IMG/VR virus record: IMGVR_UViG_3300047335_000079
Location: 6,980 to 70,979 of that record
Strand: one strand, 5' to 3'
Length of the DNA stretch: 64,000 nucleotides
From: a virus
Shown: positions 23,142-47,009 of the stretch, piece after piece
Numbering within the stretch: position 1 is the stretch's first letter
Layout of the letters: every line of letters starts with the position of its first letter
Translations under genes and position numbers: made by a program
Notes under the pieces: generated by a model
The model's input: the letters and a program-made list of their open reading frames with translations, nothing else
What the model was told of the DNA's origin: nothing
Databases searched by the model: none

Positions 23142-23218
23142 TGGTATACCCTCAGGGATTTGAACCCTGAACCTCTTGGTCCCAAACCAAGCGCGCTACC
23201 AAATTGCGCCAAGGGTAT
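23142..23218 (-). tRNA. tRNA-Pro(TGG)
   Basis: ATACCCT-TG-GCGC..GCGC-G-CTTGG-TT TGG GA-CCAAG...CAGGG-TTCAAAT-CCCTG-AGGGTAT-A-CCA. Confidence 0.9.
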
Positions 23219-23332: not shown

Positions 23333-23362
23333 TCTTAGCACATTGGACGCGCGGGTGTCAAG
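23333..23362 (-). promoter_or_regulatory. sigma70-type promoter upstream of the tRNA-Pro unit
   Basis: TTGACA-18-TAAGAT with TGTG extension. Confidence 0.7.
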
Positions 23363-39222: not shown

Positions 39223-39498
39223 GTGAGCTTGAAACCTACTGCTATTTCTGCCCTGAAACTTCGCAAGCAACGCAAAGTGTTCGCCGAAACTGCAGGGGCC
39301 GTCGTGCTCGTTGCGATGGTGGTGGCATTTATCGGCGCAGTGTATCTGGGCCTCCTGTTCGCCGTGTTTCACGCGATCAAATTCGTGTGGGCGACCTACC
39401 CCCTGAACTACTGGCAGACCGTCGTTGGGGTCTTTCTCATCGCCTTTGTCGCCAACCTCGTGGCCGCGCCATTTCGACGGAAAAGCGAGCCGGAGTAG
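39223..39498 (+). CDS. Two-TM membrane protein
   Basis: Two long hydrophobic segments. Confidence 0.6.
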   Translation: MSLKPTAISALKLRKQRKVFAETAGAVVLVAMVVAFIGAVYLGLLFAVFHAIKFVWATYPLNYWQTVVGVFLIAFVANLVAAPFRRKSEPE

Positions 39499-39619
39499 GG
39501 CTGTGTCTCGAATTTTTTGGCGTCGTGTGTGGCGCTCTCTTTGGCATGGCCCTATCGCTGCTACTGCGTAGGTGTGATATAGTAGACCCTAATCACCTCT
39601 TTGATAAAGGAGAACAACC

Positions 39620-39817
39620 TTGAAAACGACCATCGCTTCCAAAGCTCGCGCGGCAATCACCCGCAAACGCGGTATTACCTCGCACGAATTCACCAAAGTT
39701 GCTAAGACGAGTCGAGGCACGGCATCGAGCGCCCTTGCGCGCATCCGCCACGCCAAAGTCGGTGGCTTCCGCCAGAACCCACGCACCGGGCGGTTCAACA
39801 TCGTCTACGTCGCGTAA
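39620..39817 (+). CDS. Small, very basic putative nucleic-acid-binding protein
   Basis: AAAGGAG RBS, TTG start; K/R-rich 65 aa; own extended -10 (TGTGATATAGT ~39573). Confidence 0.65.
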   Translation: MKTTIASKARAAITRKRGITSHEFTKVAKTSRGTASSALARIRHAKVGGFRQNPRTGRFNIVYVA

Positions 39818-39822
39818 GGCCC

Positions 39823-39852
39823 TTGACAACAGGCCCCGGCCTGTGGTACAAT
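39823..39852 (+). promoter_or_regulatory. Consensus-like sigma70 promoter
   Basis: TTGACA-18-TACAAT with TGTG; spacer holds the palindrome ACAGGCC-CC-GGCCTGT. Confidence 0.8.
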
Positions 39853-39857
39853 GCCCA

Positions 39858-40105
39858 AGCGAGGTTGAGGCTCGGCGACCCTGCGGCTCTGAACCGCTAA
39901 AGGGCACGCCACAAGAAATGCCGGATATTCCCCGGCAGACGGTACTCCGAGGCCGTTACCACCAAACATCGTGAAGGCCCCGCCCTCGGGTAGTAGTTAG
40001 GCACGCAGCTAACAGAGGGCACAATTTCTTTCCACTCTAAAACTGTTCGCTGACAGGGGAGCAACAAAAACACCGCTTGACTAATCGTCGGCGGTGTTTT
40101 TGTTT
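39858..40105 (+). ncRNA. Candidate ~250 nt stand-alone structured ncRNA
   Basis: Lies between the promoter and a terminator; nested stems GGCG/CCCT/GCGG, AAGAAAT/ATTTCTT closing TGCCGG, GACGGT and GCCCTC hairpins; no RBS-led ORF. Confidence 0.65.
40063..40105. terminator. Bidirectional intrinsic terminator
   Basis: AACAAAAACACCGC...GCGGTGTTTTTGTT. Confidence 0.8.
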
Positions 40106-40251
40106 AGATGGGCCTTGATTTGAGATCGCTTTTCTCGGCGCTTGTCAGAAAAGAAGCCTGCTTTTCTGAAACGGGACCACGCCACGCCTAGTCGGCCTGT
40201 CAATAACCTAACGGGTTGTTGAGTTTTTGGCTTAGACACCGCAGTACCCCA

Positions 40252-41751
40252 CTACTTAAACGAGGTCATTCTGTTCAAGCGCTGTCTGAGTGCAACGGCT
40301 CGCTCGAACTCAATTTGGTAGCCCAGCGCGTCGGAAACGTGAGTGCGCTCGGGGTCGGACTTTTTGTCGAGGTCGTTGGTGCCCTCGACGTACTTGACCA
40401 TTTCAACGTCCTTGATGGTTTCGACACAGCGTGGGTGGAACCACATGCCGTAGCGGCCATCTGCTGCTTTCAAGTGAGCGTTGAACGCGCCGATGCGGTC
40501 TCCTACGCTCGATGACTTCATTCGGATACGTGGCTCAAACCTAATACCGGCAAGGCGAAGTCTCTCGAAGATGACACCCCAGTTGGAACGGTTAGCTGAT
40601 TGGGAGGAAATCTGCTGGCTTCGAGCCCCGCCTGCCGGGTCTCCGTAGATCACCACACCTTTCTTACGGGCTTGCTCACCGAACCTACGGATGAATTCAT
40701 CAGCCACATCCGGGGCTCCTGCATCGTGCATGATGATCTCGTCGATGACATAGGTGATTTGCTCTTGGGCCGCAGGCACGGTCCAGTTGCGGAATTTCCG
40801 CATTTCTTCAATCGTCGAGCCCGCGACTTTGTGATAGTCCATGCCGCGACGGTCAATGGTGTGCGGTGCAACGAACGTCTGAGAGATCGTGCTGGCCATG
40901 TAGCCCACGTTAAAGTCCAGCGCCCATTGGAGTGGCAGGCCGTCGATGTACTCAATAGGCGGCAACCCCGCAAGTGGTTCGAGGTGGATGCGCCGGTCAA
41001 AGGCCTTGTAGACACGGCCCCGCACGGCATAGCCCCATTGCCCATCCACGAGAACATGTGCTTCGTCCTCGCTCATTGAGCGAAGCAGCATCGGTAGGTA
41101 CTCGGGGTCAGCGTCGAGCAAGAACACGTTGTCTCGCACACTGACCTGCTGGTAGGTGCAAAAGTGCTGTTCTTCAAGAAGTTCGTAGAGCCAATGCGCG
41201 ATCGTCTCAGGCGGGTTCGTTGAGAAGCGCAGTTGGGGTGAAAGATCGTCGTACTTTGCAGCTTTGCCTTCGGGTGAAGGACGCAAACGCGGGGTAAGGT
41301 ACTTAACGAAGGCCTCGTTTGTTGGGCCCCAATCTGAGATTTCGTCGGCGTAGATGGAGTCCGCTTCCAAGGAGCGAAATGACTCGAAGTTTTCAGCCGT
41401 CAGTGGAAACAGCCGCGCATCCACCCCAGGGACCACAATGGTATTATCGGAGCGGTTATGAACGGCCTTGATGTTGCGCCGCGCGAACTCCGCCATAATC
41501 GACGGAATGGTGCCGCGCTTCAACTGTGGGGTGTCGCGACCTGCAAAGCAGTGCTTGGCGTGGGGGAACTTCATCACCCGGTCGATCAGCCACGAACAGC
41601 ACACCTGCGTTTTGCCAGAGCCCAGGCCCCCAATGACGCCGTGAATACGGTTCTGATTGCCCAGGAACTCGGCCTGCCAGGGCAATACCTGGAGGCGATG
41701 TTCAACTACGTTTGGCATTTTGTTAAAAGGTTCCGCAGTCCCTTCTCGCAA
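40252..41751 (-). CDS. terL: Terminase large subunit
   Basis: Walker A GGLGSGKT, Walker B IYADE, STNP; nuclease motifs LDFNV, YGDPAG, HVSDALGY. Confidence 0.93.
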   Translation of the reverse strand: MREGTAEPFNKMPNVVEHRLQVLPWQAEFLGNQNRIHGVIGGLGSGKTQVCCSWLIDRVMKFPHAKHCFAGRDTPQLKRGTIPSIMAEFARRNIKAVHNRSDNTIVVPGVDARLFPLTAENFESFRSLEADSIYADEISDWGPTNEAFVKYLTPRLRPSPEGKAAKYDDLSPQLRFSTNPPETIAHWLYELLEEQHFCTYQQVSVRDNVFLLDADPEYLPMLLRSMSEDEAHVLVDGQWGYAVRGRVYKAFDRRIHLEPLAGLPPIEYIDGLPLQWALDFNVGYMASTISQTFVAPHTIDRRGMDYHKVAGSTIEEMRKFRNWTVPAAQEQITYVIDEIIMHDAGAPDVADEFIRRFGEQARKKGVVIYGDPAGGARSQQISSQSANRSNWGVIFERLRLAGIRFEPRIRMKSSSVGDRIGAFNAHLKAADGRYGMWFHPRCVETIKDVEMVKYVEGTNDLDKKSDPERTHVSDALGYQIEFERAVALRQRLNRMTSFK

Positions 41752-41841
41752 CCTTTAGGGTTGTGATAAAATGAAATTCGGACCTTTTCGAGAATTAACA
41801 GTACGCTTACGAACAATTTGGTCGCGAGGACACAACCCCAC

Positions 41842-41985
41842 ATGAACCTGCCTGTGCCTCCAACCGAGGCCGAAAACATCATTTCCGACACGAATGCCGC
41901 GCTGGGCAACGCCATGAGTAAGTCTATCCTCGCTGGGGTATCGTTTCTGGGACTCGTTGTGCTGGTTGCCTGCCTTGCCCCGTAA
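41842..41985 (+). CDS. 47 aa protein with a C-terminal TM
   Basis: GAGGA RBS; ...SILAGVSFLGLVVLVACLAP*. Confidence 0.5.
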   Translation: MNLPVPPTEAENIISDTNAALGNAMSKSILAGVSFLGLVVLVACLAP

Positions 41986-42100
41986 ACCGTCTTGGACGTG
42001 CCCGTATTGCTCCGCCGCTGGTACAGCGGACGATCAACGAACCGCTGATGCTTCTCGAAAGTGGCACGTAGATCAGTACCACGCCAAGAAGAAGCGTTAA
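41975..42100 (+). CDS. 41 aa C2H2-type zinc-finger micro-protein
   Basis: MPRKPSWTCPYC...WHVDQYHAKKKR*; TAATG coupling to the next gene. Confidence 0.55.
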   Translation: MPRKPSWTCPYCSAAGTADDQRTADASRKWHVDQYHAKKKR

Positions 42101-42570
42101 TGTCTTTCATTACCAGGACCATTCAAGGCGTCGTCGAATCGAGTGAGCGAAAGTTCATCATCGACAACTTCGTCCCTTACACCAACTCCCAAGGAGTCAC
42201 CGTCTTGCCACCCTTCCTCAAAGAGATTCTCGCGCTGCTCGGCGGCGAAGTTGTCGCTTATCTCAACAGCCATGAGGCTGAGTTCATTGCCGCCGCGCAG
42301 GCCGCAGGGACGACTGGCGCTTCTGCGCTCAAGGCCTACATCAACAAGATCGTCGCTGGTGATGCGCTGCTCGCCCCGTTTGCTTCGCTCATCGACGCGG
42401 CGATTGACGCGGCGCTGCCCAAACTCCTCGCGGCTGCTGGCGGCGACGAGAAACTGCTCTACGCCGCAGTCCTGGCCTATGTGAGCAAAGAGCTTGGCTA
42501 CTTGAGTGCCCCAAACCCAGCCTCGGCTATCCCTGGGCTGGTCGGCGCGCGCCCAATCGGAGCGGACTAA
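42100..42570 (+). CDS. Ala-rich hypothetical protein (possibly membrane or lysis related)
   Basis: MSFITRTIQG...; amphipathic, Ala-rich. Confidence 0.6.
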   Translation: MSFITRTIQGVVESSERKFIIDNFVPYTNSQGVTVLPPFLKEILALLGGEVVAYLNSHEAEFIAAAQAAGTTGASALKAYINKIVAGDALLAPFASLIDAAIDAALPKLLAAAGGDEKLLYAAVLAYVSKELGYLSAPNPASAIPGLVGARPIGAD

Positions 42571-46033: not shown

Positions 46034-46080
46034 TTGACAGGCACCCCCGTGGTGTGCTATAATATCCACGGGGGTGTTTG
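46034..46080 (+). promoter_or_regulatory. Promoter embedded in an inverted repeat
   Basis: TTGACA-18-TATAAT; the -10 lies between the arms CAGGCACCCCCGTGG and CCACGGGGGTGTTTG. Confidence 0.75.
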
Positions 46081-46106: not shown

Positions 46107-47009
46107 GTGAAATCTAGCACAGCCGCAGTTTCTCGATTGCGCTTACGACGACTAACCTCGGGCCTTTGTCAGCTTTGCGGCAGGCGTCCGTGCCTGCCTG
46201 AACTAAAGTCATGTGGTGCCTGCTCACTGCGCAACCAGGAAAAAACCAAGGCTGATTGGGTTAAAACGAAATCACAAGAGAGCGAGACCGCTAAGTCAGC
46301 GCGCCGAGCGCAAAGCCGTGAGGCTACCCGCAAACTTCGCGAGGCGCGGCTTGCTAATAATAAGTGTGTTCTGTGCGGCGACTACCCCCCACGCCCAGGG
46401 TTTACGCAATGCGAAGCATGCGCTCAACTCCGCCGCGACCGCGCGCGGGAGTACGAGGCTAAGAGGCGCGCAAATGGAGAGTGTCGTCGATGCCGGAACC
46501 CAATTCGCCCTGGAACTCAGCAGTGTGAGGCTCACTTAGCACTCGATGCAGAGCGCCAGCAAAACCGAATGCCAACCCTACGGTCCCAGCAGCGCGCGGC
46601 GGGTATTTGTATTTATTGTGGCACCCAGCCCGCTCGCGAGGGTCGCGTGGGGTGTGCTATTTGTGCTACAAAAAATAAGGTTTCTTACGACAAGCGGGGT
46701 CGGCGGTGGGCACTAAACGTCCTTTCGCGAAGCCGATGGTCCGCGACTCAGCATGGGGGCAAGCCCCTACTAGTCACCCCCGAATGGCTGGTGGAGTCTC
46801 GCTTACAGGCAAATGATACGTGTGAAGGATGCCTTAAAGTTACTGAAAAACTCCGGCCAGACCACAGCCATCTCGACGGAACCTTCCGAGCATGGTTGTG
46901 TGGAACGTGCAACAGCGCGCTTGGAATGGTTAAGGATAATGACAAAACCCTAGAGCGCTTAGCCCAGATCGTAAAAAGACACGCGGCGGGCACTAGCGAA
47001 GAGGCTTAA
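46107..47009 (+). CDS. Endonuclease VII-like (HNH-fold) endonuclease with four N-terminal Zn-finger repeats, probable homing endonuclease
   Basis: CEGC...PDHSHLDGTFRAWLCGTCNSALG; repeats C..CG..P...G...C..C. Confidence 0.8.
   Translation: MKSSTAAVSRLRLRRLTSGLCQLCGRRPCLPELKSCGACSLRNQEKTKADWVKTKSQESETAKSARRAQSREATRKLREARLANNKCVLCGDYPPRPGFTQCEACAQLRRDRAREYEAKRRANGECRRCRNPIRPGTQQCEAHLALDAERQQNRMPTLRSQQRAAGICIYCGTQPAREGRVGCAICATKNKVSYDKRGRRWALNVLSRSRWSATQHGGKPLLVTPEWLVESRLQANDTCEGCLKVTEKLRPDHSHLDGTFRAWLCGTCNSALGMVKDNDKTLERLAQIVKRHAAGTSEEA

What the first reader, a model, noticed from the sequence alone, without database searches (positions are those of the whole stretch)
39573..40105. Independently transcribed ~250 nt multibranch ncRNA directly behind a small basic protein
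Seen: a near-consensus promoter (TTGACA-18-TACAAT, palindromic spacer) and a strong terminator bracket a region with no RBS-led ORF. It holds a nested GGCG/CCCT/GCGG hairpin, an AAGAAAT/ATTTCTT stem closing three hairpins, and a CTGT/ACAG hairpin. Immediately upstream is a 65 aa K/R-rich ORF with its own promoter, and the unit converges on terL. Inference: a new phage RNA, possibly an RNP with the basic protein, acting as decoy, antitoxin mimic or packaging-associated RNA. This is the clearest candidate for an undescribed system in the window.
Basis: partly seen in the sequence, partly recalled or inferred. Interest (0 to 1): 0.75.

Follow-up and report, generated by a model that had tools for sequence, protein, structure and literature searches.

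The report
Orphan phage promoter-to-terminator non-coding unit
A strong promoter and a strong terminator in an uncultivated phage bracket about 245 bases that encode no protein, so a short RNA is probably made, but its body folds no better than scrambled sequence and no relative was found, so it stays an ordinary, unverified small-RNA candidate.

Summary
The transcription signals are real. There is a promoter TTGACA-18-TGgTACAAT at 39823-39852. The window has 7 such near-consensus sites against 0.3 in shuffles. A perfect 14-bp-arm bidirectional terminator lies at 40063-40104. The roughly 245 nt between them are non-coding in all six frames. They match no Rfam family.

The claimed multibranch structure is not supported. 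Without the terminator, the 204-nt body folds exactly like its shuffles (z 0.01; 104 of 200 shuffles as good).

I found no homologue of the RNA in 240 fetched loci, 5 related viral records or 401 Acidobacteriota genomes. The 65-aa basic protein has no true relative either. Covariation could therefore not be tested.

Nothing supports an RNP, decoy, antitoxin or packaging role.

Best reading: a discrete, loosely structured phage small RNA that shares the terminator of the rightward operon.

Main rival: a lambda-PR'/AlpA-like terminator-gated leader controlled by the adjacent small basic protein. Low-to-moderate interest.

The parts
39575..39583 (+). Extended -10-like element TGATATAGT ahead of the basic ORF. 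It has no recognisable -35.
   Evidence: Read by eye. Not listed by the promoter scan, which needs at least 4 of 6 in the -35.
39620..39817 (+). 65-aa very basic ORFan protein (15 K+R, 1 acidic). TTG start with AAGGAG 8 nt upstream. Predicted helix-helix-helix-strand-strand.
   Evidence: Coding-like LLR 0.13 and GC3 0.70. No Pfam, PHROG or NCBIfam match. No true homologue. AF2 pLDDT 78.
39823..39852 (+). Sigma-70-type promoter TTGACA-18-TACAAT with TG extension. It starts 6 nt after the stop codon of the basic ORF.
   Evidence: 11 of 12, TG. One of 7 sites with 11 or more of 12 in the window, against 0.3 in shuffles.
39829..39844 (.). 7-2-7 palindrome ACAGGCC-CC-GGCCTGT inside the promoter spacer. 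Possible operator or binding element.
   Evidence: one exact copy in the window. (I10). One natural variant, 39835 C>T.
39859..40062 (+). Body of the predicted transcript. Non-coding and not more structured than shuffled sequence.
   Evidence: TSS inferred 7 nt after the -10. (non-coding). (z 0.01 and -0.65). (no Rfam family).
40063..40104 (.). Bidirectional intrinsic terminator T1: 14-bp perfect stem, A-run before and T-run after. It ends the RNA, the rightward operon and terL.
   Evidence: I1. (z -5.89). (found on both strands).
40200..40232 (+). Second, weaker plus-strand terminator-like hairpin T2 (10 pairs plus GTTTTTGG), 20 nt before the terL stop codon.
40252..41751 (-). Large terminase subunit gene, convergent with the unit. 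The database's own call for this gene product is 488 aa, so the start probably lies at 41718.
   Evidence: PF03237, 1.1e-06. (phrog_2, 2.2e-26)..

Best explanation
This is a discrete non-coding transcription unit of an uncultivated tailed phage.

Inferred from sequence signals:
- Host sigma-70 RNA polymerase starts at about 39859 from a near-consensus extended -10 promoter.
- It stops at the strong terminator T1, with the RNA 3' end at about 40100-40107. The weaker T2 acts as a backstop so that no transcription runs antisense into terL.
- The product is an untranslated RNA of about 245 nt.
- The same sequence is also the 3' tail of any read-through from the rightward operon that ends with the 65-aa basic ORF.

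Inferred and weak:
- The body is no more stable than scrambled sequence. The RNA therefore more likely acts, if it acts at all, as a loosely structured base-pairing regulator of host or phage transcripts than as a folded scaffold or ribonucleoprotein.

The target is unknown.
For: - Promoter of 11 of 12 with TG.
- The phage clearly uses such promoters. There are 7 sites with 11 or more of 12 against 0.3 in shuffles, and 14 with 10 or more against 3.8.
- Most of these sites sit 0-40 nt before coding-like ORFs. Examples are 31485, 10588, 6522, 54906, 22360 and 7961. By my reading, the 12-of-12 site at 46034 lies 73 nt before ORF 46107-47009.
- Terminator z is -5.89, with 0 of 200 shuffles as good.
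- Of 14 promoter-like sites, only this one has a terminator within 450 nt downstream, so the short unit is singular and not a by-product of signal density.
- All six frames look non-coding: LLR -0.19 to -0.44, against coding 0.22 +/- 0.11 and non-coding -0.34 +/- 0.21, with 1-4 stops in each frame.
- No SD-led small ORF.
- A tandem plus-strand terminator-like hairpin, T2, lies before terL.
- Another run's contig spans 39743-40124 with one change, in the promoter spacer. This only shows that the unit is stable among near-identical strains.
Against: - There is no evidence of transcription.
- The body has no structural signal (z 0.01).
- No homologue was found in any searched set, so there is no conservation and no covariation.
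- No significant complementarity to the phage's own genes. The longest complementary run is 13 nt, and 28 of 100 shuffles reach 13 or more. For duplex energy, 85 % of 60 shuffles do as well.
- The only notable outside match is probably chance. It is 26 of 28 nt of the RNA 5' end, antisense to a large surface-protein gene in 1 of 401 Acidobacteriota genomes, at E 1.7e-4 per genome.
- A strong promoter with a terminator could also exist for reasons other than the RNA product.
Confidence: 0.4

Rival explanations
1. This is a terminator-gated leader of a processive-antitermination switch, built like lambda Q-PR'-6S RNA-tR' or Pseudomonas AlpA-PalpB-tB.
- It then loads onto RNA polymerase and lets it bypass T1 and T2.
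- The ~245-nt RNA is the default terminated by-product, as StxS is in Shiga-toxin phages.
For: Architecture:
- The regulator-sized gene ends 6 nt before the -35.
- A unique palindrome lies in the spacer.
- There is a long untranslated leader.
- A strong terminator is followed by a second one.

Protein: predicted three helices plus a beta-hairpin, and winged-helix look-alikes as leads only.

Literature:
- AlpA paper, passages read (PMC7969949). It describes a small protein predicted to have a winged helix, a binding element between the -10 and -35, intrinsic terminators downstream of the promoter, and no sequence homology to Q.
- StxS (PMC7547250). I saw only the search listing and the start of the abstract.

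Context: no site with 10 or more of 12 consensus positions precedes the plus-strand genes between 41843 and 46031.
Against: - No plus-strand gene follows the terminators for 1.74 kb. The next DNA is terL on the opposite strand, so read-through would be antisense to an essential late gene.
- The protein matches no Q, AlpA or other family.
- AlpA's motif GGGACG-N5-GGTA is not present in register, by eye.
- No -10-like pause element is apparent in the first 25 transcribed bases, by eye.
- An extended -10-like TGATAAAAT at 41764-41772 (by eye) could serve the downstream plus-strand genes.
- No other promoter in the window has a leader terminator.
Confidence: 0.2
2. The RNA has no function of its own. 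Either the promoter-terminator pair is a relic of a rearrangement that inverted terL, or it acts as a transcriptional buffer at the convergent junction between the rightward operon and terL.
For: - In 13 of 16 related loci examined, terL is followed on the same strand by a large (523-579 aa) ORF, read by me as portal. Here terL is inverted relative to the virion genes. A rearrangement at exactly this junction is therefore plausible.
- The body has no structure signal, no homologues and no detectable target.
- 7-nt inverted matches, AAGGCCC and GGGCCTT, flank the unit (I2, 75 % over 16 nt). They are weak.
Against: - An 11-of-12 promoter with a TG extension is costly to keep if useless.
- The unit is intact in near-identical strains from other samples.
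- Phage genomes are compact, and 245 nt of idle DNA behind one of the seven strongest promoter-like sites in the window is unusual.
Confidence: 0.2
3. One reading: a folded multibranch RNA that forms a ribonucleoprotein with the basic protein. It would act as a decoy, an antitoxin mimic or a packaging RNA.
For: - The protein is extremely basic (15 K+R of 65) and adjacent to the unit.
- The named hairpins exist in the sequence.
- The unit lies next to terL.
Against: - The body folds like shuffled sequence.
- No Rfam match, which includes the pRNA, 6S, C4 and Y-RNA-like models that release 15 holds.
- No tandem repeats as in ToxI.
- No toxin gene nearby.
- The terminase is of the classical T4-like type, which needs no pRNA (that it needs none is recalled).
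- The protein's predicted topology looks like a DNA-binding winged helix (leads only).
Confidence: 0.07
4. The unit is a small protein gene, for example the 18-codon ORF at 39918-39974 or one of the minus-strand ORFs of 54 and 58 codons.
For: The open frames exist.
Against: - No SD-like motif precedes any plus-strand small ORF, whereas neighbouring genes have AAGGAG or AAGGAA.
- Codon LLR is -0.18 (18 codons), -0.21 (58 codons) and -0.12 (54 codons), against coding 0.22 +/- 0.11.
- The minus-strand ORFs start inside the terminator or have no promoter.
Confidence: 0.03

Closest known systems
Lambda PR'-6S RNA-tR' leader and its derivative sRNA StxS in Shiga-toxin phages
   Same: - A strong, constitutively built promoter.
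- A short untranslated transcript ended by a strong intrinsic terminator. For lambda 6S RNA, the length of about 200 nt is recalled.
- A small regulator gene directly upstream.
- The terminated RNA can itself be a regulator. For StxS (PMC7547250) I saw only the listing and the start of the abstract.
   Different: - Here no late genes follow on the same strand, because terL converges on the unit.
- No Q-family protein is present.
- No pause element was seen.
- Antitermination is untested.
AlpA antiterminator system of Pseudomonas aeruginosa (PMC7969949, passages read)
   Same: - A small protein with a predicted winged helix.
- A candidate binding element between the -35 and -10.
- Intrinsic terminator(s) in the leader.
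   Different: - No sequence match to any family, so none to the Pfam AlpA family (E up to 1).
- The binding motif differs.
- There is no regulated operon behind the terminators.
Stand-alone and 3'-UTR-type bacterial or phage small RNAs with their own promoter and a shared operon terminator (general class, recalled)
   Same: - Own sigma-70 promoter just after a stop codon.
- Shares the intrinsic terminator of the upstream operon.
- Non-coding.
   Different: - No homologues, no known seed or target, and no chaperone evidence.
- The A-run pairs with the U-tail in the bidirectional terminator.
phi29 packaging RNA (pRNA), recalled
   Same: A phage RNA made from a strong promoter. Here the unit lies next to the packaging gene.
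   Different: - No Rfam match.
- This phage has a classical large terminase.
- The body shows no structure signal.

Membership tests
Any Rfam 15 family (including pRNA, 6S, C4, tmRNA, ribozymes, Y-RNA-like) | Score at or above the family's gathering threshold | tested here: not met
   - the only 2 matches in the window are tRNAs elsewhere.
- the best match in 39500-40300 is 19.1 bits against a gathering score of 60 (E 2.1), and it lies on the terminator hairpin.
tRNA / tmRNA | Cloverleaf or tmRNA architecture detected by ARAGORN | tested here: not met
   3 tRNAs, at 23142, 42785 and 42907. None lies in 39573-40105.
Structured ncRNA (generic) | Folding energy below that of dinucleotide shuffles | tested here: not met
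   - z 0.01, and 104 of 200 shuffles fold as well.
- z -0.65 against a genome background of -0.66 +/- 1.19.
Structured ncRNA (generic) | Covariation in homologues | not testable with these tools
   - No homologue found.
Q / AlpA-type antitermination leader | Intrinsic terminator between the promoter and the first gene | tested here: met
   T1 at 40063-40104. T2 at 40200-40222.
Q / AlpA-type antitermination leader | Regulator binding element between the -35 and -10 | tested here: inconclusive
   A unique 7-2-7 palindrome lies in the spacer. Binding is untested, and the AlpA motif is not matched (by eye).
Q / AlpA-type antitermination leader | Regulated genes downstream on the same strand | tested here: not met
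   The next 1.74 kb is terL on the opposite strand. The plus-strand ORFs there are antisense frames of terL.
Q / AlpA-type antitermination leader | Adjacent protein belongs to a known antiterminator family | tested here: not met
   - No Pfam, PHROG or NCBIfam match for the 65-aa protein.
- The fold searches are inconclusive: Foldseek has 0 matches at E up to 0.001, and the best VIA Z is 4.1.
Type III toxin-antitoxin RNA (ToxI-like) | Tandem direct repeats followed by a toxin gene | tested here: not met
   - there is no tandem repeat family in 39400-40300, only scattered 2-copy matches.
- No gene follows on the same strand.
Winged-helix DNA-binding proteins (for the 65-aa ORF) | Three-helix bundle plus beta-hairpin wing, confirmed by a structural match | tested here: inconclusive
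   - The secondary-structure order H-H-H-E-E fits (pLDDT 78, single sequence; the other four models 50-60).
- Atlas look-alikes are winged-helix families, at 0.85-0.89.
- There is no significant structural match.

The most novel reading that the evidence does not exclude
The 65-aa ORFan protein and the promoter-leader-terminator unit form a minimal, previously unseen processive-antitermination switch.
- The protein binds the palindrome in the promoter spacer and makes RNA polymerase ignore T1 and T2.
- Transcription then runs antisense across the inverted terL and on into the rightward tRNA and virion genes.
- This would tie the timing or dosage of terminase to late transcription.
- The terminated ~245-nt RNA would be the off-state product.
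Probability: 0.1. Interest if true: 0.6.

Novelty: new member of a known kind. Interest (0 to 1): 0.28.

Why it matters
If the RNA is made, it adds one more orphan small RNA to the poorly charted non-coding repertoire of environmental phages. This one comes from moss-associated metagenomes. The host may be Acidobacteriota, judged only from distant TerL relatives.

On present evidence it opens no new question. The unit has no family, no structure signal and no target.

The more interesting possibility is that the adjacent ORFan basic protein and the palindrome-bearing promoter form a tiny Q/AlpA-like switch at a convergent junction with terL. That could be tested cheaply with a reporter.

Tried and rejected
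**Homology route**
- Nucleotide search of 39550-40250 against 50,697 phage records found no match.
- The own genome holds only the unit itself, plus the terminator arms matching each other.
- TerL, the basic protein, P0003 and P0004 as single queries in viral contigs found no relative.
- The TerL alignment A1 gave 80 loci each from viral contigs (best 45 %), metagenome contigs (best 40 %) and genome contigs (best 31 %).
- nhmmer with the RNA found nothing at E up to 1 in 240 loci. Earlier, on 160 loci, it gave only three hits at E 3.1-5.5 on the terminator part.
- tblastn with five neighbouring proteins found nothing at E up to 0.01.
- A single-sequence covariance model, R1, found only itself in 40 sources (380,017 bases). 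The next best hit had E 4.8.
- I checked the loci where terL is followed by convergent genes. In L003 a promoter-like site drives a real 112-aa gene with a good RBS. L012 has no signals. There is no analogue.

**Host-mimic idea**
- 5 Acidobacteriota genomes gave only chance-level hits, best E 0.049.
- Of 401 genomes, 1 had a hit at E up to 0.001. It lies inside a large surface-protein gene. I judged it probably chance.

**Target prediction inside the phage**
- Not above shuffles. The duplexfold method is crude.

**Basic protein**
- phmmer against PDB sequences gave only E 1.7 and above.
- The two HMMER hits P0053 and P0054 are repeat or low-complexity proteins that match one short motif. I rejected them as relatives.

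**Sequencing runs**
- No RNA holder was listed, so expression could not be tested.
- Logan contigs of four other moss-metagenome runs carry near-identical DNA. One contig spans 39743-40124 with a single change. This is too little variation for covariation. Parts without cover say nothing.

**Searches not spent**
- The third homologous-protein search and the three remaining viral-contig scans. I saw no query likely to reach the close relatives.

**Papers**
- Supplements were not consulted (closed). Supplementary Figs 5-6 of PMC7969949, on AlpA's fold and motif, may bear on the AlpA comparison.

Full report
**Context**

The window is bases 6980-70979 of a 70,979-nt IMG/VR phage contig rated 97 % complete. 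It has 57 % G+C.

Genes run leftward up to about 31.4 kb and rightward from about 35 kb. The exception is the large terminase gene (40252-41751, minus strand; PF03237 1.1e-06, phrog_2 2.2e-26). It is a lone minus-strand gene between rightward blocks.

**Observation**

- The promoter is as described: TTGACA (39823-39828), 18 nt, TACAAT (39847-39852). This is 11 of 12 consensus positions, preceded by TG.
- It is not an isolated lucky match. The window has 7 sites with 11 or more of 12 positions against 0.3 in shuffles, and 14 with 10 or more against 3.8.
- Most of these sites lie 0-40 nt ahead of coding-like ORFs. The phage therefore uses this promoter type.
- The terminator has perfect 14-nt arms (40063-40076 and 40091-40104) with an A-run before and a T-run after. 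Its z is -5.89, and 0 of 200 shuffles fold as well.
- It reads as a terminator on both strands. It therefore also ends terL.
- A second, weaker plus-strand terminator-like hairpin follows at 40200-40222.
- Of the 14 promoter-like sites, only this one has a terminator within 450 nt downstream.

**Coding potential**

- With a codon log-odds model trained on 21 long ORFs, all six frames of 39859-40066 score -0.19 to -0.44. Coding windows score 0.22 +/- 0.11 and non-coding frames -0.34 +/- 0.21. Each frame has 1-4 stops.
- The 18-codon ORF (39918-39974) scores -0.18 and has no SD-like motif. Neither do the three other small plus-strand ORFs.
- The 65-aa ORF upstream scores as coding (0.13, GC3 0.70) and has AAGGAG 8 nt before its start.

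**Structure**

- The full 245 nt gives z -2.99. That comes from the terminator.
- The 204-nt body (39859-40062) has MFE -66.6 against a shuffle mean of -66.67, z 0.01, and 104 of 200 shuffles fold as well.
- My own run on 208 nt gave z -0.65. The mean for 80 windows tiled over the same genome is -0.66 +/- 1.19.
- The AAGAAAT/ATTTCTT closing stem is not in the MFE or centroid fold.

**Known families**

- Rfam at gathering thresholds finds only two tRNAs elsewhere in the window.
- At E up to 10, the best match in 39500-40300 is 19.1 bits against a threshold of 60, on the terminator hairpin.
- ARAGORN finds nothing here.

**Relatives**

- TerL has relatives at 72 %, 73 % and 65 % identity (P0002-P0004). 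They are also not in viral contigs.
- The 240 loci I could fetch carry TerL at 45 % identity or less.
- None of them has a sequence match to the RNA, a match to a single-sequence covariance model (40 sources), or a homologue of the five neighbouring proteins.
- In 13 of 16 of the closer loci examined, terL is followed on the same strand by a 523-579-aa ORF, read by me as portal. The inverted terL, and hence this junction, is peculiar to this lineage.
- The two loci with convergent genes after terL show no analogous unit.
- Five whole related viral records also lack the RNA.

**The basic protein**

- No Pfam, PHROG or NCBIfam family matches.
- The word-index search finds only the protein itself.
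- A full HMMER scan of 1.84 billion representatives adds two hits. Both are repeat proteins that match one short motif.
- AlphaFold on the single sequence gives helix 5-17, helix 21-30, helix 35-44, strand 46-52 and strand 59-64. Mean pLDDT is 78, and the other four models score 50-60.
- Language-model look-alikes are small winged-helix families at 0.85-0.89, which are leads only.
- Foldseek and VIA-align give nothing significant.
- A DNA-binding winged helix is the leaning, unproven reading. Nothing argues for RNA binding beyond the charge.

**Mechanism**

The best-supported reading is a discrete, untranslated ~245-nt transcript that shares the operon's terminator. It is loosely structured, so it is more likely a base-pairing regulator than a scaffold. 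I could not find a target:
- Complementarity to the phage's own genome is at shuffle level.
- The one notable outside hit is probably chance. It is 26 of 28 nt of the RNA 5' end, antisense to a large surface-protein gene, in 1 of 401 Acidobacteriota genomes.

The main rival comes from the architecture. A small gene ends 6 nt before a strong promoter whose spacer holds a unique palindrome. A long leader and tandem terminators follow.
- This is the layout of lambda Q-PR'-tR' (recalled) and of AlpA-PalpB-tB. In the AlpA system a small predicted winged-helix protein binds between the -10 and -35 and lets polymerase bypass leader terminators (PMC7969949, passages). The terminated RNA can become a regulator, as with StxS (PMC7547250; search listing and start of the abstract only).
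- Against it: nothing on the same strand follows the terminators for 1.74 kb, and terL converges. The protein matches no antiterminator family. No other promoter of this phage has a leader terminator.

A third reading is that the unit is a relic or buffer at the inversion junction.

**Verdict**

The transcription signals are real and the unit is non-coding. The structure claim fails, and the RNP, decoy and packaging ideas are unsupported. No family membership and no conservation could be shown. It is a plausible orphan phage small-RNA gene, ordinary in kind, with a modest chance of being part of a small antitermination switch.

Noticed in passing
window 40252-41751 against loci L004-L015, L084-L086: terL is a lone minus-strand gene between rightward blocks. 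In 13 of 16 related loci examined, terL is followed on the same strand by a 523-579-aa ORF, probably portal. This lineage therefore seems to have inverted terL.
   Followed up: partly
window, whole: There are seven near-consensus sigma-70 promoter-like sites (11 or more of 12), against 0.3 expected. Five are on the minus strand below 31.5 kb and two on the plus strand above 39.8 kb, matching the divergent gene arms. The site at 23361 (minus strand, 10 of 12) lies about 110 nt ahead of tRNA-Pro.
   Followed up: partly
window 41764-41772 and 39575-39583: Two extended -10-like elements without a -35 (TGATAAAAT and TGATATAGT, read by eye). They lie ahead of the plus-strand genes after terL and ahead of the basic ORF. 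They may be a second promoter class.
   Followed up: no
L251 1501-1528 (G093:C30:109126-109153): 26 of 28 nt of the RNA's 5' end equal the antisense strand of a 557-aa repeat-rich surface-type protein gene in one Acidobacteriota genome (E 1.7e-4 per genome; 1 of 401 searched). Probably chance.
   Followed up: partly
loci L163-L242: By record title, most of the 80 distant TerL relatives (27-31 % identity) in genome contigs lie in Acidobacteriota MAGs (Bryobacteraceae, Solibacteraceae, Terriglobia). This is a weak hint at the host phylum of this moss-metagenome phage.
   Followed up: no
window 39831-39848 and 39975-39992: The promoter-spacer sequence has a 15-of-18 direct copy inside the transcript body (D2). 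This is about what the number of comparisons allows by chance, and it is unexplained.
   Followed up: no
window 40132-40189: One other run's contig differs at 4 listed places within this 58-nt stretch of the terL 3' spacer. The contigs over 39743-40124 and 39748-39898 differ at one place each. The spacer may be freer to vary than the unit, but depth is very low.
   Followed up: no
window 41706-42122 minus strand: The 138-aa ORF upstream of terL, which could be taken for a small terminase, scores as non-coding (LLR -0.07) and has no NCBIfam match. Plus-strand ORFs overlap it.
   Followed up: partly
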